Shown: positions 12,691 through 58,565 of the stretch, piece after piece
Layout: each line of letters opens with the position of its first letter
Position numbering within the stretch: the stretch's first letter is position 1
Sequence record: PZ445134.1
Strand: one strand, 5' to 3'
DNA: 64,000 nucleotides
From: a phage
Notes under the pieces: model-generated
Database searches by the model: none
What the model saw: the letters and a program-made list of their open reading frames with translations, nothing else
Told to the model about the DNA's origin: nothing
Made by a program: the position numbers and the translations under genes

Positions 12691-12713
12691 AGCAAAAAGG
12701 GCCGAAGCCCTTA
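12691..12713 (-). terminator. intrinsic terminator (GGGC-UUCG-GCCC + U5)
   Basis: minus strand AAGGGC-UUCG-GCCCUUUUUGCUUU. Confidence 0.55.
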
Positions 12714-13157
12714 TTTAAATTTAATTTTCTGAAGTGCATCAATTGCAGCCAAACGCCCTTGTTCACTTTTAACTGTAATGACCACATCACCTGATACGAT
12801 CACCGAACCATCAACAAATTCTACAGAGCCTTTTTTGAAATCGACAGATGTATCTGGTTCCGGAACTTCTTCAAAGAATTTAAATTCTGCACCATAAATC
12901 AGAATATCACCTTGCATACTATGAATAGTTCGGCCATAATCGCCTACGGCTTCTACAGCAATCACTGAAACACCATGACCAATCATCTCTTCCACAATAA
13001 AATCTTTGGACAATAAAGTAGTATGCAGATTAGTATTAAGACGTTTACCAGTCGTATTAAGAATTCTCAAGAAATTATCTTCCTGTCCTTTGATAATACG
13101 ATATTTCTTACCAACTTCAAAACCTTTAAAATCTTTAAAAGCCGTATTAAAAGCCAT
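12711..13157 (-). CDS. hypothetical protein (148 aa)
   Basis: ORF track; terminator immediately downstream. Confidence 0.5.
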   Translation of the reverse strand: MAFNTAFKDFKGFEVGKKYRIIKGQEDNFLRILNTTGKRLNTNLHTTLLSKDFIVEEMIGHGVSVIAVEAVGDYGRTIHSMQGDILIYGAEFKFFEEVPEPDTSVDFKKGSVEFVDGSVIVSGDVVITVKSEQGRLAAIDALQKIKFK

Positions 13158-13341
13158 AATTAACCCTTCTTAAGTAAGTCGTAAAAACCACCATTCACAT
13201 GTTTAGGAGCAGAAACCCGACGAGTAGACAGACGATGACATTCAGGGCAAACATCGTTTTCTCGTTCAGAAATCCTTTTAATTTTTTCATATTCATGACC
13301 ACAATCTTCAGATTGGCATTTATAGTCGTATAACGGCATTA

Positions 13342-13752
13342 TTATTCCTTAAAGTGAGCTTTCAACATTTGATACAAAGACCATGCCTGGTCGTTATTTT
13401 TGATAGTAATCGTCATCGCAGGAAATTCAGACAATTCGTCAAGTTCATCAGAATCTTGCTCTTCAGACGCTTGATATGGATTTTCAACTTCGTCAAAGAA
13501 CTCTGCTTCATTCGTGGAGAGCCAGATAAAGTTTTCATCAAGGATATCACCGCCTGTCGCGTATCCAACCGTGCCAGTAGATGTCACAATTTTAGTAGGA
13601 CGGCCAAGATGGTCAACATCTAATACTTTAAATGGTTCCATGCCAAGACGTCGTGCATAAATCCCATTATCAGTGTGGTCTTTAATAAACTCTTCTCGGG
13701 CACGTTTATCTATAAATTGGTACCATGAGTTAACGCGGAATTTATTAGCCAT
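13342..13752 (-). CDS. hypothetical acidic protein (~136 aa)
   Basis: ORF track 13342..13770; likely starts at second Met (MANKFRV...). Confidence 0.45.
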
Positions 13753-13979
13753 TAGTAAGTTTCCTTCCAATAAGTTGTACCGTTTTCAGTGATTTCACGG
13801 AAGATACCATAGATAGGCATTTCATCACCGAGTTTTTCGTAAACGTAAACCACTTCGGTGTAGCATAAAAATTCGGTCCAGTTTTTCTGTACAACAACTA
13901 AATCAGGATTAAACAGAACATCTTCAAACTCATCGATGTTTGAATCGGTAGTTACGTTTTTAATGATTTGACGTTTCAT
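13752..13979 (-). CDS. hypothetical protein (~75 aa)
   Basis: ORF track 13752..14024; likely starts at internal Met after RBS AGAGGAG within the promoter/leader cassette. Confidence 0.4.
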
Positions 13980-14036: not shown

Positions 14037-14561
14037 TCATTTTAGCAAAATAAAATCAACTTGTTCTGCCAATGAACGTCTAAACATTAATTGACAACTT
14101 CCGAGGATGAAATCAGGTGCTTCATAGACCGCGATGTAGTATCCTTTAGCTTTCAAGAGTTCAACATCCACCTGGTCATCAAACCATGCATAAACCGCAT
14201 CAACACTTTCAAATCCAAAATAGAACCCTTTAGCCCAATCTTCACTCAATTCAAATGTGTGCTCAATTCTATAGTATCTTAAGATATTTTGTTCAAGGAG
14301 TTTGTCTTCGTTTACTGTAGGACGATTAGGGACATTATAGTTGTCGCCGTGATGGTAGAAGTTACCTGAGAGTATTCCATGCTTATCAAGGAACTCCCAT
14401 GTTTCTTCAGAGTTGTCGGTGCCCGACCAACCGTATGGCGAGCGAGGTTCTTTATTCCAAGAGGTTTCCCAAATTCTGACGGCTTTACCGTCTTCGATAG
14501 CAATTCCTGGCAATGATTCACATTGAGTACAAAAACTACGTTCTACGCGGTAAACTAACAT
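14037..14561 (-). CDS. hypothetical protein (174 aa)
   Basis: ORF track; promoter cassette upstream (~14575-14615). Confidence 0.5.
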   Translation of the reverse strand: MLVYRVERSFCTQCESLPGIAIEDGKAVRIWETSWNKEPRSPYGWSGTDNSEETWEFLDKHGILSGNFYHHGDNYNVPNRPTVNEDKLLEQNILRYYRIEHTFELSEDWAKGFYFGFESVDAVYAWFDDQVDVELLKAKGYYIAVYEAPDFILGSCQLMFRRSLAEQVDFILLK

Positions 14562-14620
14562 ATTATTCTCCTCTGGTTGATGTGGTTATAATATCAAAAC
14601 CAGAGGAGAAGTAAACAACT

Positions 14621-15040
14621 TTATGCAAAAGACGCTGGACAATATTTTTTGATTTGGAACTCAGGAACTACCATGAACTGACCAGCGAAAACGATGTTAT
14701 AAAGCTTAACACCATCTTCTACCCAACGGTCGCTAATAAATCCGGCGATTTGCTTAGTTTTCCATGGAGACCCATCAGTTGCAGCAGCAATAGTAAATTC
14801 ATGGTCTTTTACAACTAAAACTGATCTGCATAGTCCCCATTTGAACGCTTTTTCTTCTGGTTCAATGAATTGGCTTTTAACATAACCAATATTACCATCG
14901 GCGTCACGAACTTTAACTTCGTTACGTCCAAAAACCGGATCACTCACAGAAAGAACTTCAACCAACTTCCCGGCAACTTTAGAGCGAGAAGCAACAGATA
15001 CATATACGTAATCACCTGTAGAGAGATTTACAATATTCAT
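14621..15040 (-). CDS. hypothetical protein, tandem paralog A (139 aa)
   Basis: shares SRSK(A/V)AG(R/K)LVEV and GFISD(Q/R)WVEDG.KLYNIVF.G.F.VV blocks with the adjacent gene. Confidence 0.55.
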   Translation of the reverse strand: MNIVNLSTGDYVYVSVASRSKVAGKLVEVLSVSDPVFGRNEVKVRDADGNIGYVKSQFIEPEEKAFKWGLCRSVLVVKDHEFTIAAATDGSPWKTKQIAGFISDRWVEDGVKLYNIVFAGQFMVVPEFQIKKYCPASFA

Positions 15041-15049
15041 AATAATTCC

Positions 15050-15505
15050 TTAAGCTTTACGAGGAGACACATAGCGAGTGATTTCAGATTCTTTAACAAC
15101 TCGGAAGTCACCTAAGAATACGATATTGTATAACTTTTCACCATCTTCAACCCATTGGTCACTAATGAAGCCACACATAGTATCAGTTTTGCTTGGATAA
15201 CCATATTCGTCGATGAAGTCAAATTCTTTATCAGTCTGGAATTCAACACCTTTACACAAGGCCCATTTGAACTGTACATTAGGCTCATTGGAAGCAGAAT
15301 GAGCGCTCACAGGATTTTCCAAGAATTTAGGACTTACATAAGCGAACTGAACATCTTTTTGCCCAAAGTTATAAATGATTCGAACTTTAACTTCTTTAAT
15401 GCGTCCCATGCCATTTGTGCGAAGTCCCACCACTTCAACCAATCGTCCTGCAGCTTTAGAACGAGATACAGGCGATACATACTTAATTTCACCAATAGTA
15501 ATCAT
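15050..15505 (-). CDS. hypothetical protein, tandem paralog B (151 aa)
   Basis: see paralog A; RBS AGAGAGAGA; promoter cassette upstream. Confidence 0.55.
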   Translation of the reverse strand: MITIGEIKYVSPVSRSKAAGRLVEVVGLRTNGMGRIKEVKVRIIYNFGQKDVQFAYVSPKFLENPVSAHSASNEPNVQFKWALCKGVEFQTDKEFDFIDEYGYPSKTDTMCGFISDQWVEDGEKLYNIVFLGDFRVVKESEITRYVSPRKA

Positions 15506-15534
15506 AATTTCTCTCTCTTTGTTAAATTGAATTT

Positions 15535-15564
15535 ATTATACTCCAACCATCCTTGGTTGTAAAC
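15535..15564 (-). promoter_or_regulatory. early-type promoter cassette (GTTTAC ... CCAAGGATGGTTGG ... TATAAT)
   Basis: minus strand GTTTACAACCAAGGATGGTTGGAGTATAAT; same cassette recurs at 57599 and 58592. Confidence 0.5.
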
Positions 15565-15569
15565 TGATT

Positions 15570-16247
15570 TTATCGCTGTTTTACACTTAACGGGTCAGGA
15601 TTCTCAGGGACATCTTCAAGGCCAAGCGCATAACGCTGAGCATATTTTAACATCAAAATATCTTTAGCACAATCATGAATACTATCATGGGCAATGAATC
15701 CTTTTAACGTACCTATCGGTAATGGACACATACTTAATCCTCGTGTCAACGAGTAAGCTTCGATTGCCGTACGAATATCGCGTTGAGCCCAGAATTTAAC
15801 CGGTTCTAATTTATCAGTATCAATCTCTGGTTCAGGAACACCTTCATCACGATAGAGATCACGAATCAAATCGACCAAGATCGGGAAGTCAAAGCTCATA
15901 CCACGACACCACATCTGTGATTTCCATTGGTCAACTTTATTAGCTCGGCAATAATCTAAAAAGATTTTAATGCCTTCAAGCGTAGTGACATCGTCTTCAG
16001 ACGGAGCCAAGTTTTTACGTGCTTCAGCCGATTGTTCTTTCCACCATTTCATAGTGGATTTAGCGAAAACTCGCTTCCCTTTCTGAGAAGCTAAATTAAA
16101 TTTAATTCGCTTACCTCGTTGAACAAGTTCTTCAAATGATTCAACAACTTCAGGGTCGGAATTATATGCAATAACCGCAAGGTCAATAACAGCCGCTTTT
16201 GATGTATTGCCGAATGTTTCAAAATCTATAATAACATCAGTGCTCAT
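15570..16247 (-). CDS. dexA: exonuclease A (DnaQ-like 3'-5' exonuclease)
   Basis: 225 aa; N-terminal IIDFETFG exonuclease motif; synteny with dda. Confidence 0.8.
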   Translation of the reverse strand: MSTDVIIDFETFGNTSKAAVIDLAVIAYNSDPEVVESFEELVQRGKRIKFNLASQKGKRVFAKSTMKWWKEQSAEARKNLAPSEDDVTTLEGIKIFLDYCRANKVDQWKSQMWCRGMSFDFPILVDLIRDLYRDEGVPEPEIDTDKLEPVKFWAQRDIRTAIEAYSLTRGLSMCPLPIGTLKGFIAHDSIHDCAKDILMLKYAQRYALGLEDVPENPDPLSVKQR

Positions 16248-16256
16248 AATTTTCTC

Positions 16257-17570
16257 TCAAATAAAATGGACGTCAAACCGACCACGAGTTGTGCCAACAT
16301 ACAATAACTGTTTAGCTAATTCTGAATCGGCATAATGGATACACGGTGTATAAACAAAGGCCGTGTCAACAGACATACCCTGGGCCTTATGGAAGGTTGA
16401 TACTGGTAGTGCCTTCACCTTAGTGAACATACGTTTAGCATCCCAGAATTCGTTCCATGGAGCTTTACCACCTTTATTCCAAAATTTGTATGTTTCTGCG
16501 GTTTTAGCCAAAAACAAATTGAATTTATAAAGCTCTTCTTCAGAAGAAATAACCTTTATATCTTCGCGGATGTATTCTTCATCATCCCCATATGTTTCTA
16601 CTGTAAGATTCCAGTATCGTATCATATATTCACCTGAAACACCACGTGCTTTAACGAATGTAGACGTTTCTACAGCATCTCGAATACGAACGAATTGGCC
16701 GTTATTGAAAAGCATTTCGGTCATATTTTTACCATCTAGCTTATATGTCTTAGTAAATGGTTCTTGTAGAACAATGACTTCGTCTTTAACAAATGGTTTT
16801 TCTGTTTCAAGAAGTTTTCGGCGAATAATTGAATTTAACTTGTCCACCGACTTATTTGTGAATGCCATCATTCGATTTTCGAAAAGGTCTTCAGGAGTTT
16901 TAACGACGTTAAAATAGTTCATCATATACGATTTAAGGTCTGTATATCCATGAACACCGTGCCCATCAACTACTTTATCGTAAATCCATTTGCCGTTACG
17001 AATATCAGTCGCAACATCAATAATTGGTGCATTGCTACGTTTAACTTCTGTAAGGTTGCATTGCACGAAGTCTTTGTGTGTGAAGAAAGGACTTAGATAC
17101 GCAGTTGATTCGCCTGGGTCTACCGGACGAATCTGGCATCGGTCGCCGATTCCAATTACTGTACACCATTTAGGGATACTAGCTAACATTATTTTAAACA
17201 GAGAACGGTCGCACATTGATGCTTCATCAAATAACAGTACACGACACAAGGCTAAGTCGGGAACCTTTTTCTGTTCAAACAATACGTTTTCTTCGTATGT
17301 AGTCGGGTTGATTTTAAGAATGCTATGAATAGTCGATGCTTCTTGACCTGCGAGTTTGCTTAGAACCTTTTTAGCAGCATGTGTAGGGGCTGCTAAAATA
17401 ATACCTGATTCTCCAGAAGAAATAAGGGCTTCAACGATGAATCTAGTAAGGGTTGTTTTACCTGTACCAGCAGGCCCGTTAATAGTTACGTGATGTTTCT
17501 TTTCTTTAATAGCTTTCATAACAACGTTGAAGGCGTTTTTCTGGCCTTCGGTCAAATCATCAAATGTCAT
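16257..17570 (-). CDS. dda: Dda DNA helicase (SF1)
   Basis: 437 aa; Walker A GPAGTGKTT; T4 Dda length 439. Confidence 0.9.
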   Translation of the reverse strand: MTFDDLTEGQKNAFNVVMKAIKEKKHHVTINGPAGTGKTTLTRFIVEALISSGESGIILAAPTHAAKKVLSKLAGQEASTIHSILKINPTTYEENVLFEQKKVPDLALCRVLLFDEASMCDRSLFKIMLASIPKWCTVIGIGDRCQIRPVDPGESTAYLSPFFTHKDFVQCNLTEVKRSNAPIIDVATDIRNGKWIYDKVVDGHGVHGYTDLKSYMMNYFNVVKTPEDLFENRMMAFTNKSVDKLNSIIRRKLLETEKPFVKDEVIVLQEPFTKTYKLDGKNMTEMLFNNGQFVRIRDAVETSTFVKARGVSGEYMIRYWNLTVETYGDDEEYIREDIKVISSEEELYKFNLFLAKTAETYKFWNKGGKAPWNEFWDAKRMFTKVKALPVSTFHKAQGMSVDTAFVYTPCIHYADSELAKQLLYVGTTRGRFDVHFI

Positions 17571-56315: not shown

Positions 56316-56620
56316 TATAATGTTCTCTCAAATTTGTGGAAGCATTTACGGCATTTCAATTTCAAGTTATCAGTGGTCCAGTTAACCAGTTGGACTTGGA
56401 TAGTTCCACATTCCGGACATGGATGTTTTGCTGCCGATTTGGCAGCATTTTCACGTCGTTCAACCATTTTCATTATTTCGTTCCATGCCGGAGGAACGAA
56501 CTCTTCTTCACCGTGGATTTTATCTCGCTGAACAAATTCAATCTTTGAACTATCGTCGATAAACTTAACCAAGCTGTGATTAGTGCTCATGTCAATATCC
56601 TCTAAAAGACGTAGTTTCAT
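56315..56620 (-). CDS. zinc-ribbon protein (101 aa)
   Basis: CPECG ... CRKC four-Cys arrangement. Confidence 0.45.
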   Translation of the reverse strand: MKLRLLEDIDMSTNHSLVKFIDDSSKIEFVQRDKIHGEEEFVPPAWNEIMKMVERRENAAKSAAKHPCPECGTIQVQLVNWTTDNLKLKCRKCFHKFERTL

Positions 56621-57570
56621 TATAAAACCTCAATGGCATTTCGTAAACCATCCGCTTTCGCATTCAGAGCTTTTAACGATTTAGTTTTTTCTGCAATCTG
56701 GGCTTCGACTTCTTTCAGTCGAGATTTGAGATATTCGCGTTCTTCTCTTAAATTATCAACTTTTTCTACTTTAGGTTCTTTAATAGGCTTAGGTTTATAC
56801 GTATTAGGGTTCTTCAGTTTAATTAGAATGTGTGAACTGTACAGCATTGAACCATTATCTTCGGTTTCGTCATACATTTCCACTACGTCCATCATCTCCA
56901 CCATCGTGCAGAGTTTATAAGACAACGAACGAATAGTTTTGTTGTGCTTATTAATTTCTTTAGAGTTCATGGTGCCTAGATTACGCGAGTAGTAATAAGG
57001 AACCTGGATATCAATTGTCAATGATGCGTTACCATTACCAGTTGGTTTGAATACTGCAGTAACCCAATCTTTAACATGAACTTTATTTGTACGACCATCG
57101 CCACCTGTGAATAATTTACGAGAATGTTTAAAAAGCATATTCACTTGGTTATTGAATTCACAAGCAAATTTATCAGCAAATTTAGTTTCAGGAATGGTAG
57201 ATAACCAATCAGCCAAGTAGGTCTTTTTAACATCGTTAACAATAGTAAATTCAACCAAATCGGTTATAGATGTCGCAGTTTTAATGAAGCTCGGCTTCAT
57301 AAAGTTTTTAATGTTATCGCGAGCTATAGTAGAAGATAATAAACGAGAACGTTTGAACCATTGAAGCAGTGTCCCTAATGAATGAGAATACGCATTCTGA
57401 GTATCTTTACAGATATGATTTTCTTGGCCTGTGTATGTACCAAAATCGCGAAGAATACCGCTTACTACAACTCGGTGTGGAACATCAAATCCTAATGAAC
57501 CAGAAGCACGTTGGGCATGAACGTTAGCGATAAGACCTGCAAAATAATCAACGTAATGTGAACGTGTCAT
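56620..57570 (-). CDS. hypothetical protein with C-terminal coiled coil (316 aa)
   Basis: ORF track; heptad-like C-terminus; promoter cassette upstream. Confidence 0.5.
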   Translation of the reverse strand: MTRSHYVDYFAGLIANVHAQRASGSLGFDVPHRVVVSGILRDFGTYTGQENHICKDTQNAYSHSLGTLLQWFKRSRLLSSTIARDNIKNFMKPSFIKTATSITDLVEFTIVNDVKKTYLADWLSTIPETKFADKFACEFNNQVNMLFKHSRKLFTGGDGRTNKVHVKDWVTAVFKPTGNGNASLTIDIQVPYYYSRNLGTMNSKEINKHNKTIRSLSYKLCTMVEMMDVVEMYDETEDNGSMLYSSHILIKLKNPNTYKPKPIKEPKVEKVDNLREEREYLKSRLKEVEAQIAEKTKSLKALNAKADGLRNAIEVL

Positions 57571-57598: not shown

Positions 57599-57628
57599 AT
57601 TATACTCCAACCGTCCTTGGTTGTAAAC
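57599..57628 (-). promoter_or_regulatory. early-type promoter cassette (GTTTAC...CCAAGGACGGTTGG...TATAAT)
   Basis: near-identical to cassette at 15535 and 58592. Confidence 0.5.
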
Positions 57629-57632
57629 TGAT

Positions 57633-58565
57633 TTATGATTTTAATGCATTCATTGCGTTAAAAAGTTTAGAGTACTGCAACTGGAGCTTGGTAACTACTT
57701 GTTGAGCATCACGAAGCTTAGCTTGTGCTTTGTCAAGTTCAACAGACAGTTGGTCCACAGTGGCTTTGATTTGATTATAATAGTAATCTTCGGCAGGAAG
57801 AAGACCGTTAGAGATTTCCAGTTTAGTCGACGGTGTGCCGTTAAACATAACAGGTTGTGCTGAAGCTGCATTAATCTTACCGATAGTCGGGGCGACAATA
57901 ATTGACGCTTCGAACGTTGCATTTTCCTTTTTAAGATTTTTATAATATTCAGAGTCTTTGTGCCACCATGGCGCAGGAACCTTTTTACCAATAGATACAC
58001 GAGCCTGGATAGCGATATGGCCCTTATTCTTGATAACGTCGATAATATTAAGCTCACGAGAATAAATTGCTTTAATCTGGTGAATATTATCACCTAACAC
58101 TTCCAACGCTTGGTGGAATACACGAGCAACGTTATCATTCTTAGGTTTATACGTAAGAGTGAACTCATTCTCACTGATAACCATGATTTCTAACTTATCG
58201 TAAGTATATTTCAAATGTTTCATGTTAATTGCTTGAGGACGAATACGAGAAGCAATGGCCATCAAATTGTTAAGGTTATTCCGGAACTGCTTAGCGAAAT
58301 ATTGTCCTTCACCGCCAATACAAAAATTACGAAGTTTCTGTTTGGCTAATAAACGGCTGAACTCACCATTTTTAATGAACTCTTTAACAGGTGTGTTAGT
58401 AACGCATTCAAATTGAGTAAACTTACGAGAAGTAATCCCATAATATGAACAGATTTCCTCAATCTCTTCAGGGGTCTTTACAGGCATACGGATAGGATTA
58501 GGTCCTGGAGTATATGCGTTCGAGGTAAATTCTTTGATAAGTTCTCTACGTGTAATAAAAGCCAT
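57633..58565 (-). CDS. hypothetical protein with C-terminal coiled coil (310 aa)
   Basis: ORF track; promoter cassette upstream. Confidence 0.5.
   Translation of the reverse strand: MAFITRRELIKEFTSNAYTPGPNPIRMPVKTPEEIEEICSYYGITSRKFTQFECVTNTPVKEFIKNGEFSRLLAKQKLRNFCIGGEGQYFAKQFRNNLNNLMAIASRIRPQAINMKHLKYTYDKLEIMVISENEFTLTYKPKNDNVARVFHQALEVLGDNIHQIKAIYSRELNIIDVIKNKGHIAIQARVSIGKKVPAPWWHKDSEYYKNLKKENATFEASIIVAPTIGKINAASAQPVMFNGTPSTKLEISNGLLPAEDYYYNQIKATVDQLSVELDKAQAKLRDAQQVVTKLQLQYSKLFNAMNALKS

What the first reader, a model, noticed from the sequence alone, without database searches (positions are those of the whole stretch)
14621..15505. Tandem paralogous gene pair upstream of dexA
Two adjacent genes (139 and 151 aa) share clear blocks (SRSK(A/V)AG(R/K)LVEV near the N-terminus; GFISD(Q/R)WVEDG(E/V)KLYNIVF.G.F.VV near the C-terminus), indicating a tandem duplication with divergence in the middle. 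The second copy has a dedicated promoter cassette.
Basis: seen in the sequence. Interest (0 to 1): 0.45.

Follow-up and report, generated by a model that had tools for sequence, protein, structure and literature searches.

The report
Tandem motB paralogs in RB69-like phage
The two adjacent genes are real, anciently diverged copies of the T4 early gene motB (a DNA-binding protein that acts on the host nucleoid protein H-NS); this pair is already annotated in phage RB69 and about 200 relatives, so the finding is correct but ordinary.

Summary
Both ORFs lie on the minus strand: 15505..15050 (151 aa) and 15040..14621 (139 aa). They align end to end at 44% identity (E 7e-32).

Both are MotB-family proteins (Pfam PF17613, 120 and 76 bits against a cut-off of 25). 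The window is a Mosigvirus (RB69-like) genome.
- The 151-aa gene is the motB ortholog.
- The 139-aa gene is the RB69ORF010c type. It lacks the interdomain linker and six residues of a hairpin in the N-terminal domain.

The pair is not a recent duplication. Synonymous sites between the copies are saturated (dS ~1.8). Both copies are under purifying selection (dN/dS 0.23 and 0.14). The two-gene unit has an invariant 9-nt junction and occurs in 208 of about 778 motB-carrying phage records, in both Mosigvirus and Tequatrovirus.

The pair lies transcriptionally downstream of dexA, not upstream. One early promoter cassette (15563..15535) precedes the 151-aa gene, and no promoter lies between the copies.

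RB69's second motB copy is recorded in GenBank and in Patterson-West et al. 2021.

Extras found here:
- natural single-gene hybrids recombined at the conserved blocks;
- a deletion of motB.1, mediated by the promoter cassette, in this phage;
- a predicted tandem SH3/Tudor-like fold.

The parts
15050..15505 (-). motB ortholog, 151 aa. It has a basic N-terminal KOW/SH3-like domain, a disordered linker (about residues 66-80) and an acidic C-terminal beta-barrel domain.
   Evidence: PF17613 at 120.2 bits and phrog_1671 at E 1.5e-61. It is 47% identical to T4 MotB at E 5e-39 and 87% identical to RB69 MotB, P0060. AlphaFold2 gives pLDDT 79.6 with residues 66-80 below 50. Mean net charges for the 151-type are KOW +6.5 and CTD -4.1. 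dN/dS is about 0.23 over 12 genomes.
14621..15040 (-). motB paralog, 139 aa (RB69ORF010c type). It is a linker-less MotB with a short N-terminal hairpin, a non-basic N-terminal domain and a near-neutral C-terminal domain.
   Evidence: PF17613 at 75.8 bits and phrog_1671 at E 3.7e-51. It is 44% identical to the 151-aa copy and 38% identical to T4 MotB. It is 94% identical to the RB69 gene annotated NP_861700. AlphaFold2 gives pLDDT 88.0 and pTM 0.77. dN/dS is about 0.14. Mean net charges are KOW -0.4 and CTD +0.7.
15535..15566 (-). 32-nt early promoter cassette, CAGTTTACAACCAAGGATGGTTGGAGTATAAT. The -35 is TTTACA, the spacer is 17 nt and holds the stem CAACCA/TGGTTG, and the -10 is TATAAT. It is of the PeSL (promoter-early stem-loop) type and is the only promoter-like site for the pair.
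   Evidence: The promoter scan gives 11 of 12 matches. It fits the T4/PST PeSL promoter consensus TTTACW-N17-TAYWAT quoted in PMC4122927. A second copy with one mismatch lies at 57599..57630, where none is expected by chance. The same cassette flanks motB.1 in O157tp3 and RB69.
15041..15049 (-). 9-nt spacer between the two motB genes. The junction GCTTAAGGAATTATTATG places the second gene's Shine-Dalgarno sequence (AAGGA) over the first gene's stop codon.
   Evidence: Read from the sequence. The junction is identical in all 12 pair-carrying loci examined, from Mosigvirus and Tequatrovirus.
14566..14615 (-). 3' boundary of the unit: the next promoter cassette (TTTACT-16-TATTAT) with a hairpin built on an 11-bp perfect inverted repeat (CTCCTCTGGTT / AACCAGAGGAG). 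The 3' arm holds the Shine-Dalgarno sequence of the following 174-aa motB.2-like gene.
   Evidence: Promoter scan. The RNA fold gives -21.1 kcal/mol, z -3.75, with 0 of 200 shuffles as stable. The element is conserved in 8 related loci.
15570..16247 (-). dexA (exonuclease A), the gene immediately upstream in transcription. Context only.
   Evidence: PF16473 at E 5.6e-20 and phrog_255 at E 8.7e-81. It is annotated dexA/exonuclease in relatives.
14037..14561 (-). motB.2-like gene (174 aa), the next gene downstream. It is not a MotB-fold paralog. Context only.
   Evidence: It is 34% identical to T4 MotB.2 at E 2e-15 and shows no significant match to either motB copy. It hits phrog_1106.

Best explanation
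The two genes are an ancient, selectively maintained tandem pair of MotB-family early genes of an RB69-like (Mosigvirus) T-even phage.

Shown here:
- Both are MotB homologs.
- They sit in the conserved dda-dexA-motB-cef-goF early region.
- They are preceded by one sigma-70-type early promoter cassette and separated by an invariant 9-nt spacer that carries the second gene's ribosome-binding site.
- Both are under purifying selection.
- The two-gene unit is shared by about 200 sequenced phages of two genera.

Inferred:
- Both genes are made from one early transcript immediately after infection.
- The 151-aa protein does what T4 MotB does. T4 MotB binds DNA without sequence specificity, co-purifies with H-NS and StpA on DNA, changes the H-NS footprint, relieves H-NS silencing when overproduced, and raises burst size about two-fold.
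- The 139-aa protein keeps the conserved C-terminal core but has lost the flexible linker and the positive charge of the KOW-like domain. It is therefore a specialised partner or variant with the two barrels held rigidly together, rather than a redundant copy. Most likely it acts on the same nucleoprotein targets with a different binding mode or partner.

This recombination swaps N- and C-terminal domains and occasionally fuses the pair into one hybrid gene.
For: Homology of the two copies: E 7e-32.

Family: PF17613 above its cut-off for both, and phrog_1671 'MotB-like transcriptional regulator'. Relatives annotate 'MotB-like transcriptional regulator (x2)'. RB69 gene NP_861700 is annotated 'similar to T4 AAD42609 (MotB)'. 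PMC7827196 states that RB69 has two copies of motB, and its supplement lists RB69ORF010c, RB51ORF010, Sf24 gp134 and the Shf125875 homolog.

Synteny with T4, RB69, RB10 and Bp7.

Expression signals: promoter; invariant junction.

Selection: omega 0.23 and 0.14, with dS about 1.8 between the paralogs.

Distribution: the 139-type N-terminal and C-terminal halves each occur at >=80% identity in 208 records, and the 151-type C-terminal domain occurs at >=60% in 203. Tequatrovirus RB10 and Sf23 carry the same pair, with a 151-type motB that is 76% identical to the window's but only 46% identical to T4's.

Charges.

Hybrids: clean breakpoints, 96-100% identity to one parent on each side.

T4 MotB biochemistry: PMC6070864 and PMC7827196.
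Against: - No experiment exists on either protein of this phage or on any 139-type protein, so function is transferred from T4 MotB at 38-47% identity.
- Both window proteins have a computed pI of about 7.7, against 9.23 for T4 MotB. Strong DNA binding is therefore not assured, least of all for the 139-aa copy, whose KOW-like domain is not basic.
- Co-transcription is inferred only from the absence of promoter or terminator matches between the genes.
- The origin of the pair is not resolved. The C-terminal domains of the two types group together with only 52% bootstrap support, while the N-terminal domain of the 139-type falls outside the canonical clade.
- The record lists for the two genes could not be intersected, so strict co-occurrence rests on near-equal counts (208 against 203).
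Confidence: 0.8

Rival explanations
1. Recent, lineage-specific tandem duplication of motB in this phage, with the second copy still diverging.
For: The genes are adjacent, in the same orientation, and homologous along their full length. Their C-terminal domains weakly group together in a neighbour-joining tree at 52% bootstrap.
Against: dS between the copies is about 1.8, which is saturated, and dN is 0.48. At the DNA level the longest exact shared run is about 14 nt. The same pair, with an identical junction, occurs in 12 of 12 examined loci of two genera and in 208 phage records. The 151-aa copy is closer to T4 MotB (47%) than to its neighbour (44%).
Confidence: 0.03
2. The 139-aa gene was not made by duplication in place. 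It was acquired by recombination from another T4-like lineage that carried a short-hairpin MotB, and it was inserted next to motB. The pair would then be xenologs in tandem.
For: The N-terminal domain of the 139-type (SRSKVAG, with the short hairpin EVKVRDADGNIGYV) resembles distant family members (P0141, P0145, P0148, P0149, P0154) more than canonical MotBs in hairpin length. It branches outside the canonical clade (88% support for that clade). This genome region shuffles genes at promoter cassettes and shuffles domains at conserved blocks.
Against: The C-terminal domain groups, weakly, with the neighbouring 151-type. No donor lineage with a close (>60% identical) homolog was found among 5.8 billion clusters or 1.84 billion representatives. 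The 9-nt junction lacks a promoter cassette of the kind seen at other insertion or deletion boundaries.
Confidence: 0.15
3. The 139-aa copy is a redundant or decaying duplicate without a function of its own.
For: It has lost the linker, six hairpin residues and the basic charge of the KOW-like domain. T4 does well with one motB, and motB itself gives only a two-fold burst effect (PMC6070864).
Against: Its dN/dS of about 0.14 is lower than that of the 151-aa copy. It is intact in all 12 loci examined, and its homologs at 86-93% identity are almost all of the same 139-aa length. It gives the more confident structure prediction, at pLDDT 88. Its C-terminal domain is the part retained in the natural hybrids.
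Confidence: 0.03

Closest known systems
Phage T4 MotB (NP_049626; Pfam PF17613; PHROG 1671)
   Same: Same family and the same genome neighbourhood between dexA and cef. Same two-domain plan, with the SRSKAAG motif in the N-terminal KOW-like domain and the FKW ... (I/V)(S/T)DQWVEDGxKLYN core in the C-terminal domain. Same early-promoter context.
   Different: T4 has one copy of 162 aa, basic in both domains (pI 9.23). Here there are two copies at 47% and 38% identity to it, each with pI about 7.7. The positive charge is confined to the KOW-like domain of the 151-aa copy. Gene order also differs: T4 has dexA-motB.2-motB.1-motB-cef, whereas this phage has dexA-motB-motB'-motB.2-cef.
RB69 motB (NP_861701) plus RB69ORF010c (NP_861700), and the same pair in RB10, RB51, RB68, Sf23, Sf24, Shf125875 and O157 typing phage 3
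   Same: This is the same two-gene unit: 87% and 94% amino-acid identity to the RB69 pair, an identical 9-nt junction, and the same downstream cassette.
   Different: The window phage lacks motB.1 between dexA and motB. As a result the strong dexA-proximal promoter cassette is fused directly to the motB leader.
T4 MotB.1 and its relatives (categories 2-4 of PMC7827196)
   Same: Shares only the C-terminal core motif (GWVTDQWIEDGVELLNVV), at E about 1e-9 over roughly 30-40 residues.
   Different: MotB.1 has an unrelated N-terminal domain, an LSm-like fold according to PMC12152347. No motB.1 is present in this window.
Tandem Tudor / KOW / SH3-like barrel proteins (53BP1 tandem Tudor, Spt5 KOW6-KOW7, NusG KOW). 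Resemblance at fold level only.
   Different: Sequence identity is 12-20% and TM-scores are only 0.36-0.42, so there is no evidence of homology or shared ligand. The published HHpred reading called the C-terminal domain an OB fold (PMC7827196). The model here looks more like a second SH3-like barrel.

Membership tests
MotB (Pfam PF17613, PHROG 1671) | Sequence match to the family profile above the curated cut-off | tested here: met
   120.2 bits (151 aa) and 75.8 bits (139 aa) against a gathering score of 25. phrog_1671 at E 1.5e-61 and 3.7e-51.
MotB (Pfam PF17613, PHROG 1671) | Two-domain plan: an N-terminal KOW/SH3-like barrel with the SRSK(A/V)AG motif, and a C-terminal beta-barrel with the FKW and DQWVEDGxKLYN core | tested here: met
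MotB (Pfam PF17613, PHROG 1671) | Location in the dda-dexA ... cef-goF early, non-essential region of Tevenvirinae genomes | tested here: met
   The window order is dda, dexA, motB, motB', motB.2-like, cef, goF-like. This is syntenic with T4, RB69, RB10 and Bp7.
MotB (Pfam PF17613, PHROG 1671) | Early gene served by a sigma-70-type T4 early promoter | tested here: met
   TTTACA-17-TATAAT at 15563..15535 with 11 of 12 matches. No MotA-box or late-promoter motif is nearby. Actual timing of expression was not testable.
MotB (Pfam PF17613, PHROG 1671) | Highly basic protein (T4 MotB pI 9.23) that binds DNA tightly and non-specifically | tested here: inconclusive
   Both window proteins have a computed pI of about 7.7. 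The 151-aa copy has a basic KOW-like domain (N-terminal part net +5 in the window protein; KOW domain mean +6.5 for the 151-type) but an acidic C-terminal domain (-4). The 139-aa copy has no basic domain of comparable charge. Binding itself is not testable here.
MotB (Pfam PF17613, PHROG 1671) | Co-purifies with H-NS and StpA, alters the H-NS footprint, is toxic on overexpression, and raises burst size | not testable with these tools
   Known only for T4 MotB (PMC6070864, PMC7827196).
MotB.1 subgroup | LSm-like N-terminal domain joined to a DPTDLLC...GWVTDQWIEDGVELLNVV C-terminal domain | tested here: not met
   Both window proteins match MotB.1 proteins only over about 30-40 C-terminal residues (E about 1e-9) and have KOW-type N-terminal domains.
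PeSL (promoter-early stem-loop) regulatory cassettes of T4-type phages | An early promoter of the form TTTACW-N17-TAYWAT with an associated stem-loop, repeated in the genome, and located at indel boundaries between close relatives | tested here: met
   The promoter fits the consensus quoted in PMC4122927. The stem CAACCA/TGGTTG lies in the spacer. A second copy lies at 57599..57630. Two copies flank motB.1 in O157tp3 and RB69, and the window carries the recombinant single copy. The stem-loop here lies inside the promoter spacer rather than ahead of it, which may differ from the published layout.

The most novel reading that the evidence does not exclude
The pair is a split, complementary MotB system rather than two independent copies. 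The 151-aa protein supplies the basic, DNA-binding KOW-like domain on a flexible tether. The rigid, linker-less 139-aa protein supplies the non-acidic C-terminal barrel. The two would act together, for example as a heteromer through the shared DQWVEDG-KLYN core, on H-NS or StpA nucleoprotein. Three observations are consistent with this. The two genes occur in near-equal numbers of genomes (208 and 203 records). Their domain charges are reciprocal. Natural single-gene hybrids join a basic T4- or 151-type N-terminal domain to a 139-type C-terminal domain and discard the other two halves.
Probability: 0.15. Interest if true: 0.4.

Novelty: already known. Interest (0 to 1): 0.2.

Why it matters
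MotB is one of the few T4 early 'host take-over' proteins with a known biochemical activity: it binds DNA and interferes with H-NS silencing. About a quarter of sequenced motB-carrying T-even phages keep a second, structurally distinct MotB under strong purifying selection. This suggests the single-copy T4 model does not capture the whole system, and RB69-like phages would be the natural place to test for division of labour between the two proteins. The locus is also a compact example of how T-even hyperplastic regions evolve. Whole genes are gained and lost at repeated promoter cassettes, and protein domains are exchanged at short conserved blocks. None of this changes the basic verdict: the pair itself is already annotated and mentioned in the literature.

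Tried and rejected
- **PDB sequence search.** A search with the 151-aa protein found nothing at E <= 1.
- **IMG/VR scan.** A scan with the 139-aa protein gave only 3 loci, so orthologs were taken from GenBank phage records instead.
- **Assembly-chimera explanation for the hybrids.** I considered whether the hybrid proteins from SRA assemblies are chimeras made at a shared k-mer. I judge this unlikely, because the longest exact run shared by the window's two genes is about 14 nt. In addition, the T4-NTD/139-CTD hybrid was seen on 5 contigs from at least 3 samples with consistent neighbours, and its breakpoints are clean. Among deposited genomes such hybrids are rare: at most 4 records have a 139-type C-terminal domain at 60-80% identity.
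- **Charge-complementarity idea.** I tested whether single-copy MotBs are basic in both domains while the pair splits the charge. Support is only partial. T4-type proteins fit, but single-copy Dhakavirus-type MotBs have acidic linkers and slightly acidic C-terminal domains. The idea is kept only as the 'novel case'.
- **Compensated frameshift in a 139-type variant.** I suspected this for the SCGLFSPHQ variant against SDPVFGRNE. It is rejected: the DNA shows a 24-nt replaced patch, not indels.
- **Second promoter cassette.** I checked whether the two ~310-aa genes flanking the second cassette (around 57600) are also paralogs. They are not (E 1.3).
- **Other promoter types.** A search for MotA-box middle promoters and late promoters around the pair found none.
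- **Son et al. 2021.** This Nucleic Acids Research paper on nucleoid compaction by MotB is not held in the library. It is cited here only from memory and through PMC13096335.
- **Phylogeny.** The neighbour-joining trees resolve the origin of the 139-type only weakly.

Full report

Yes. The window has two adjacent minus-strand ORFs: 15505..15050 (151 aa) and 15040..14621 (139 aa). BLASTP of one against the other gives 44% identity over 145 columns, 97.8 bits, E 7e-32.
- SRSKAAGRLVEV / SRSKVAGKLVEV
- GFISDQWVEDGEKLYNIVFLGDFRVV / GFISDRWVEDGVKLYNIVFAGQFMVV

At the DNA level the two genes are much more diverged. The longest exact shared run is about 14 nt.

**2. What are they?**

Both are members of the MotB family.
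- Pfam PF17613 'Modifier of transcription' scores 120.2 and 75.8 bits against a cut-off of 25.
- PHROG 1671 'MotB-like transcriptional regulator' matches at E 1.5e-61 and 3.7e-51.

The window is a Mosigvirus (RB69-like T-even phage). It is about 97% identical over 20 kb to phages ST0 and AV112.

Read in the direction of transcription (right to left), the neighbourhood is:
1. dda (17570..16257)
2. dexA (16247..15570)
3. a 64-nt intergenic region with a promoter
4. motB (151 aa)
5. a 9-nt spacer
6. the second motB (139 aa)
7. a promoter/hairpin cassette
8. a motB.2-like gene (174 aa; 34% identical to T4 MotB.2)
9. cef
10. a goF-like gene

The pair is therefore downstream of dexA, not upstream.

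The 151-aa protein is the ortholog-like copy. It is 47% identical to T4 MotB (E 5e-39) and 87% identical to RB69 MotB. The 139-aa protein is 38% identical to T4 MotB.

**3. Is it already known?**

Yes, on three grounds.
- The RB69 reference record annotates the gene next to motB (NP_861700, RB69ORF010c) as similar to T4 MotB. The Shf125875 record says 'similar to RB69ORF010c; similar to motB'.
- Many GenBank records carry 'MotB-like transcriptional regulator (x2)' at this position.
- Patterson-West et al. 2021 (PMC7827196) state that RB69 'had two copies of motB'. Their supplementary table lists RB69ORF010c and its counterparts in RB51, Sf24, Shf125875 and SHSML-52-1 as MotB homologs.

**4. 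Anatomy of the difference between the copies**

In a 20-sequence alignment the 139-type differs from all canonical MotBs by two deletions. One is six residues in the second hairpin of the N-terminal domain (RIIPKDGKSKPQ becomes R-DADGN). The other is the entire interdomain linker, which in canonical MotBs is hypervariable in both length (15-50 residues) and sequence.

AlphaFold2 models agree with this.

| Protein | Mean pLDDT | pTM | Linker |
|---|---|---|---|
| 151 aa | 79.6 | 0.44 | residues 66-80 below pLDDT 50; two barrels on a flexible tether |
| 139 aa | 88.0 | 0.77 | no disordered segment; two barrels in a fixed arrangement |

The charge distribution also differs.

| MotB type | KOW-like domain, mean net charge | C-terminal domain, mean net charge |
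|---|---|---|
| 151-type | +6.5 | -4.1 |
| T4-type | +4.5 | +2.2 |
| 139-type | -0.4 | +0.7 |

Both window proteins have a computed pI of about 7.7, against 9.23 for T4 MotB.

**5. Age, selection and distribution**

Between the two copies dN is 0.48 and dS is about 1.8, which is saturated.

Across 12 genomes that carry the pair, both genes are under purifying selection: omega is about 0.23 for the 151-type and about 0.14 for the 139-type.

Counts in the INPHARED phage collection:
- the 139-type N-terminal half occurs at >=80% identity in 208 records;
- its C-terminal half occurs at >=80% identity in 208 records;
- the 151-type C-terminal domain occurs at >=60% identity in 203 records;
- about 778 records have any MotB match.

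The near-equal counts suggest the two genes travel together, but I could not intersect the record lists.

The pair is not confined to Mosigvirus. Tequatrovirus RB10 and Sf23 have T4-like motB.2 and motB.1 genes followed by a 151-type motB (76% identical to the window's, only 46% to T4's) and a 139-type gene (91% identical). The junction GCTTAAGGAATTATTATGAATATTG is identical in all 12 loci. The pair therefore behaves as a two-gene cassette that is an alternative 'allele' to the single T4-type motB.

The family as a whole is tiny. A profile search found only 35 clusters at 50% identity among 1.84 billion representatives.

**6. Origin**

Neighbour-joining trees by domain (200 bootstraps) give the following.
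- The C-terminal domains of the 139- and 151-types form a weak group (52% support), apart from the T4 and Dhakavirus types.
- The N-terminal domain of the 139-type lies outside a clade of all canonical MotB N-terminal domains (88% support). Its short hairpin resembles that of distant family members.

This fits an old duplication in place followed by fast, deletion-rich change of the second copy. It does not exclude acquisition from another lineage. I give the acquisition reading 0.15.

**7. Recombination at the conserved blocks**

The protein searches returned natural mosaics.

| Protein | Composition |
|---|---|
| P0028 | 151-type N-terminal domain and linker + 139-type C-terminal domain |
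| P0029 | T4-type N-terminal domain and linker + 139-type C-terminal domain |
| P0031 | crossover inside DQWVEDG |
| P0078, P0032, P0077 | T4-like N-terminal domain + 151-type C-terminal domain (P0077 is the Shf125875 MotB) |

The contigs carrying P0028 and P0029 have a single hybrid gene in place of the pair. At the DNA level the hybrids are 96-100% identical to one parent up to the FKW codons and 96-100% identical to the other parent after them.

**8. Expression signals**

The only good promoter match near the pair is TTTACA-17-TATAAT at 15563..15535 (11 of 12 matches). No MotA-box or late-promoter motif is present.

This promoter is part of a 32-nt cassette, CAGTTTACAACCAAGGATGGTTGGAGTATAAT, which recurs at 57599..57630 with one mismatch where none is expected by chance. 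It fits the T4/PST PeSL promoter consensus TTTACW-N17-TAYWAT (PMC4122927).

In O157 typing phage 3 and RB69, two copies of this cassette flank motB.1. The window lacks motB.1. It has the 5' half of the dexA-proximal cassette joined to the leader of the motB-proximal one. This is the pattern expected from recombination between the repeats, as proposed for PeSLs (PMC2839356, PMC4122927).

**9. Likely mechanism**

Shown: family membership, synteny, promoter and junction, selection, and distribution.

Inferred: both proteins are made from one early transcript.

Function by transfer from T4 MotB. The T4 protein binds modified and unmodified DNA without sequence specificity, co-purifies with H-NS and StpA, changes the H-NS DNase I footprint, up-regulates H-NS-silenced host genes when overproduced, is toxic, and doubles burst size (PMC6070864, PMC7827196). 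It has also been proposed to compact the nucleoid (cited in PMC13096335). The 151-aa protein most likely does the same.

The 139-aa protein retains the invariant C-terminal core under the stronger constraint, but it has a rigid architecture and a non-basic N-terminal domain. I read it as a specialised variant or partner acting on the same nucleoprotein targets. This last step is inference with modest confidence.

**10. Verdict**

The feature is already annotated and mentioned in the literature. The additional points found here are incremental:
- a two-genus cassette with an invariant junction;
- the linker-less architecture of the second copy;
- domain-swap hybrids;
- cassette-mediated loss of motB.1.

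Noticed in passing
window 15506-15569 (compare L002:3000-3660 and L018:5310-5960): This phage lacks motB.1. In O157 typing phage 3 and RB69, motB.1 is flanked by two copies of the promoter/stem-loop cassette (CAGTTTACAACCAAGGATGGTTGGAGTATAAT and the degenerate TGTTGTACATCCAAGGATGGATGGAGTATAGT). The window has one hybrid copy, as expected from a deletion by recombination between the repeats (PeSL model). About 557 bp are missing relative to most relatives.
   Followed up: partly
window 57599-57630 (minus strand): A second copy of the 32-nt promoter cassette, with one mismatch, lies between two ~310-aa minus-strand genes (58565..57633 and 57570..56620). None is expected by chance. The two flanking proteins are not detectably related to each other.
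   Followed up: partly
window 14566-14615 (minus strand): A promoter-like site (TTTACT-16-TATTAT) has its -10 inside the loop of a strong hairpin. The hairpin rests on an 11-bp perfect inverted repeat, folds at -21.1 kcal/mol, z -3.75, and its 3' arm contains the Shine-Dalgarno sequence (GAGGAG) of the 174-aa motB.2-like gene. Read-through RNA from the motB pair would mask that ribosome-binding site. RNA started at the internal promoter would not. This resembles the arrangement I recall for T4 gene e and a few other T4 genes. The element is conserved in 8 related loci. In L007 the same cassette is joined to cef instead.
   Followed up: partly
L003:3330-3520 (T4) and L018:5310-5500 (RB69), minus strand: T4 motB.1 (119 aa) and RB69 motB.1 (plus its separate 29-aa ORF) each carry a one-base insertion inside the conserved DQWIEDG core: ATTGGAAGATGG in T4 and GACGGTTGTTGAA in RB69. 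The rest of the C-terminal domain (VELLNVVHAG..VVPRSAV) is still readable in another frame. The gene is intact in RB10, O157tp3, G3F8 and Bp7. The two laboratory reference phages thus have independently truncated motB.1 genes, unless these are sequencing errors. Published work on T4 MotB.1 used the truncated form.
   Followed up: partly
L007:1373-1894; L008:4001-4492; L009:2199-2690; L010:37-528: These are single-gene natural hybrids that replace the pair. One is a 151-type N-terminal domain joined to a 139-type C-terminal domain (P0028). The other is a T4-type N-terminal domain joined to a 139-type C-terminal domain (P0029, on 5 contigs from at least 3 samples). Both have clean breakpoints at the FKW codons.
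   Followed up: yes
L015:2501-2920 and L013:3001-3420 (139-type gene, codons 33-40): A 24-nt patch in the N-terminal domain is replaced (TGTGGACTCTTTAGTCCACATCAA instead of GATCCGGTTTTTGGACGTAACGAA). This changes SDPVFGRNE to SCGLFSPHQ. The replacement contains a perfect 7-bp inverted repeat (GTGGACT/AGTCCAC). It is not a compensated frameshift.
   Followed up: partly
window 13342-13770 and 12711-13157 (minus strand): Two goF-like/phrog_622 genes of 142 and 148 aa flank the small zinc-ribbon gene (13160..13339). Relatives annotate both as phrog_622, so this looks like another paralogous pair in the same early region. Only the 142-aa protein was scanned here.
   Followed up: no
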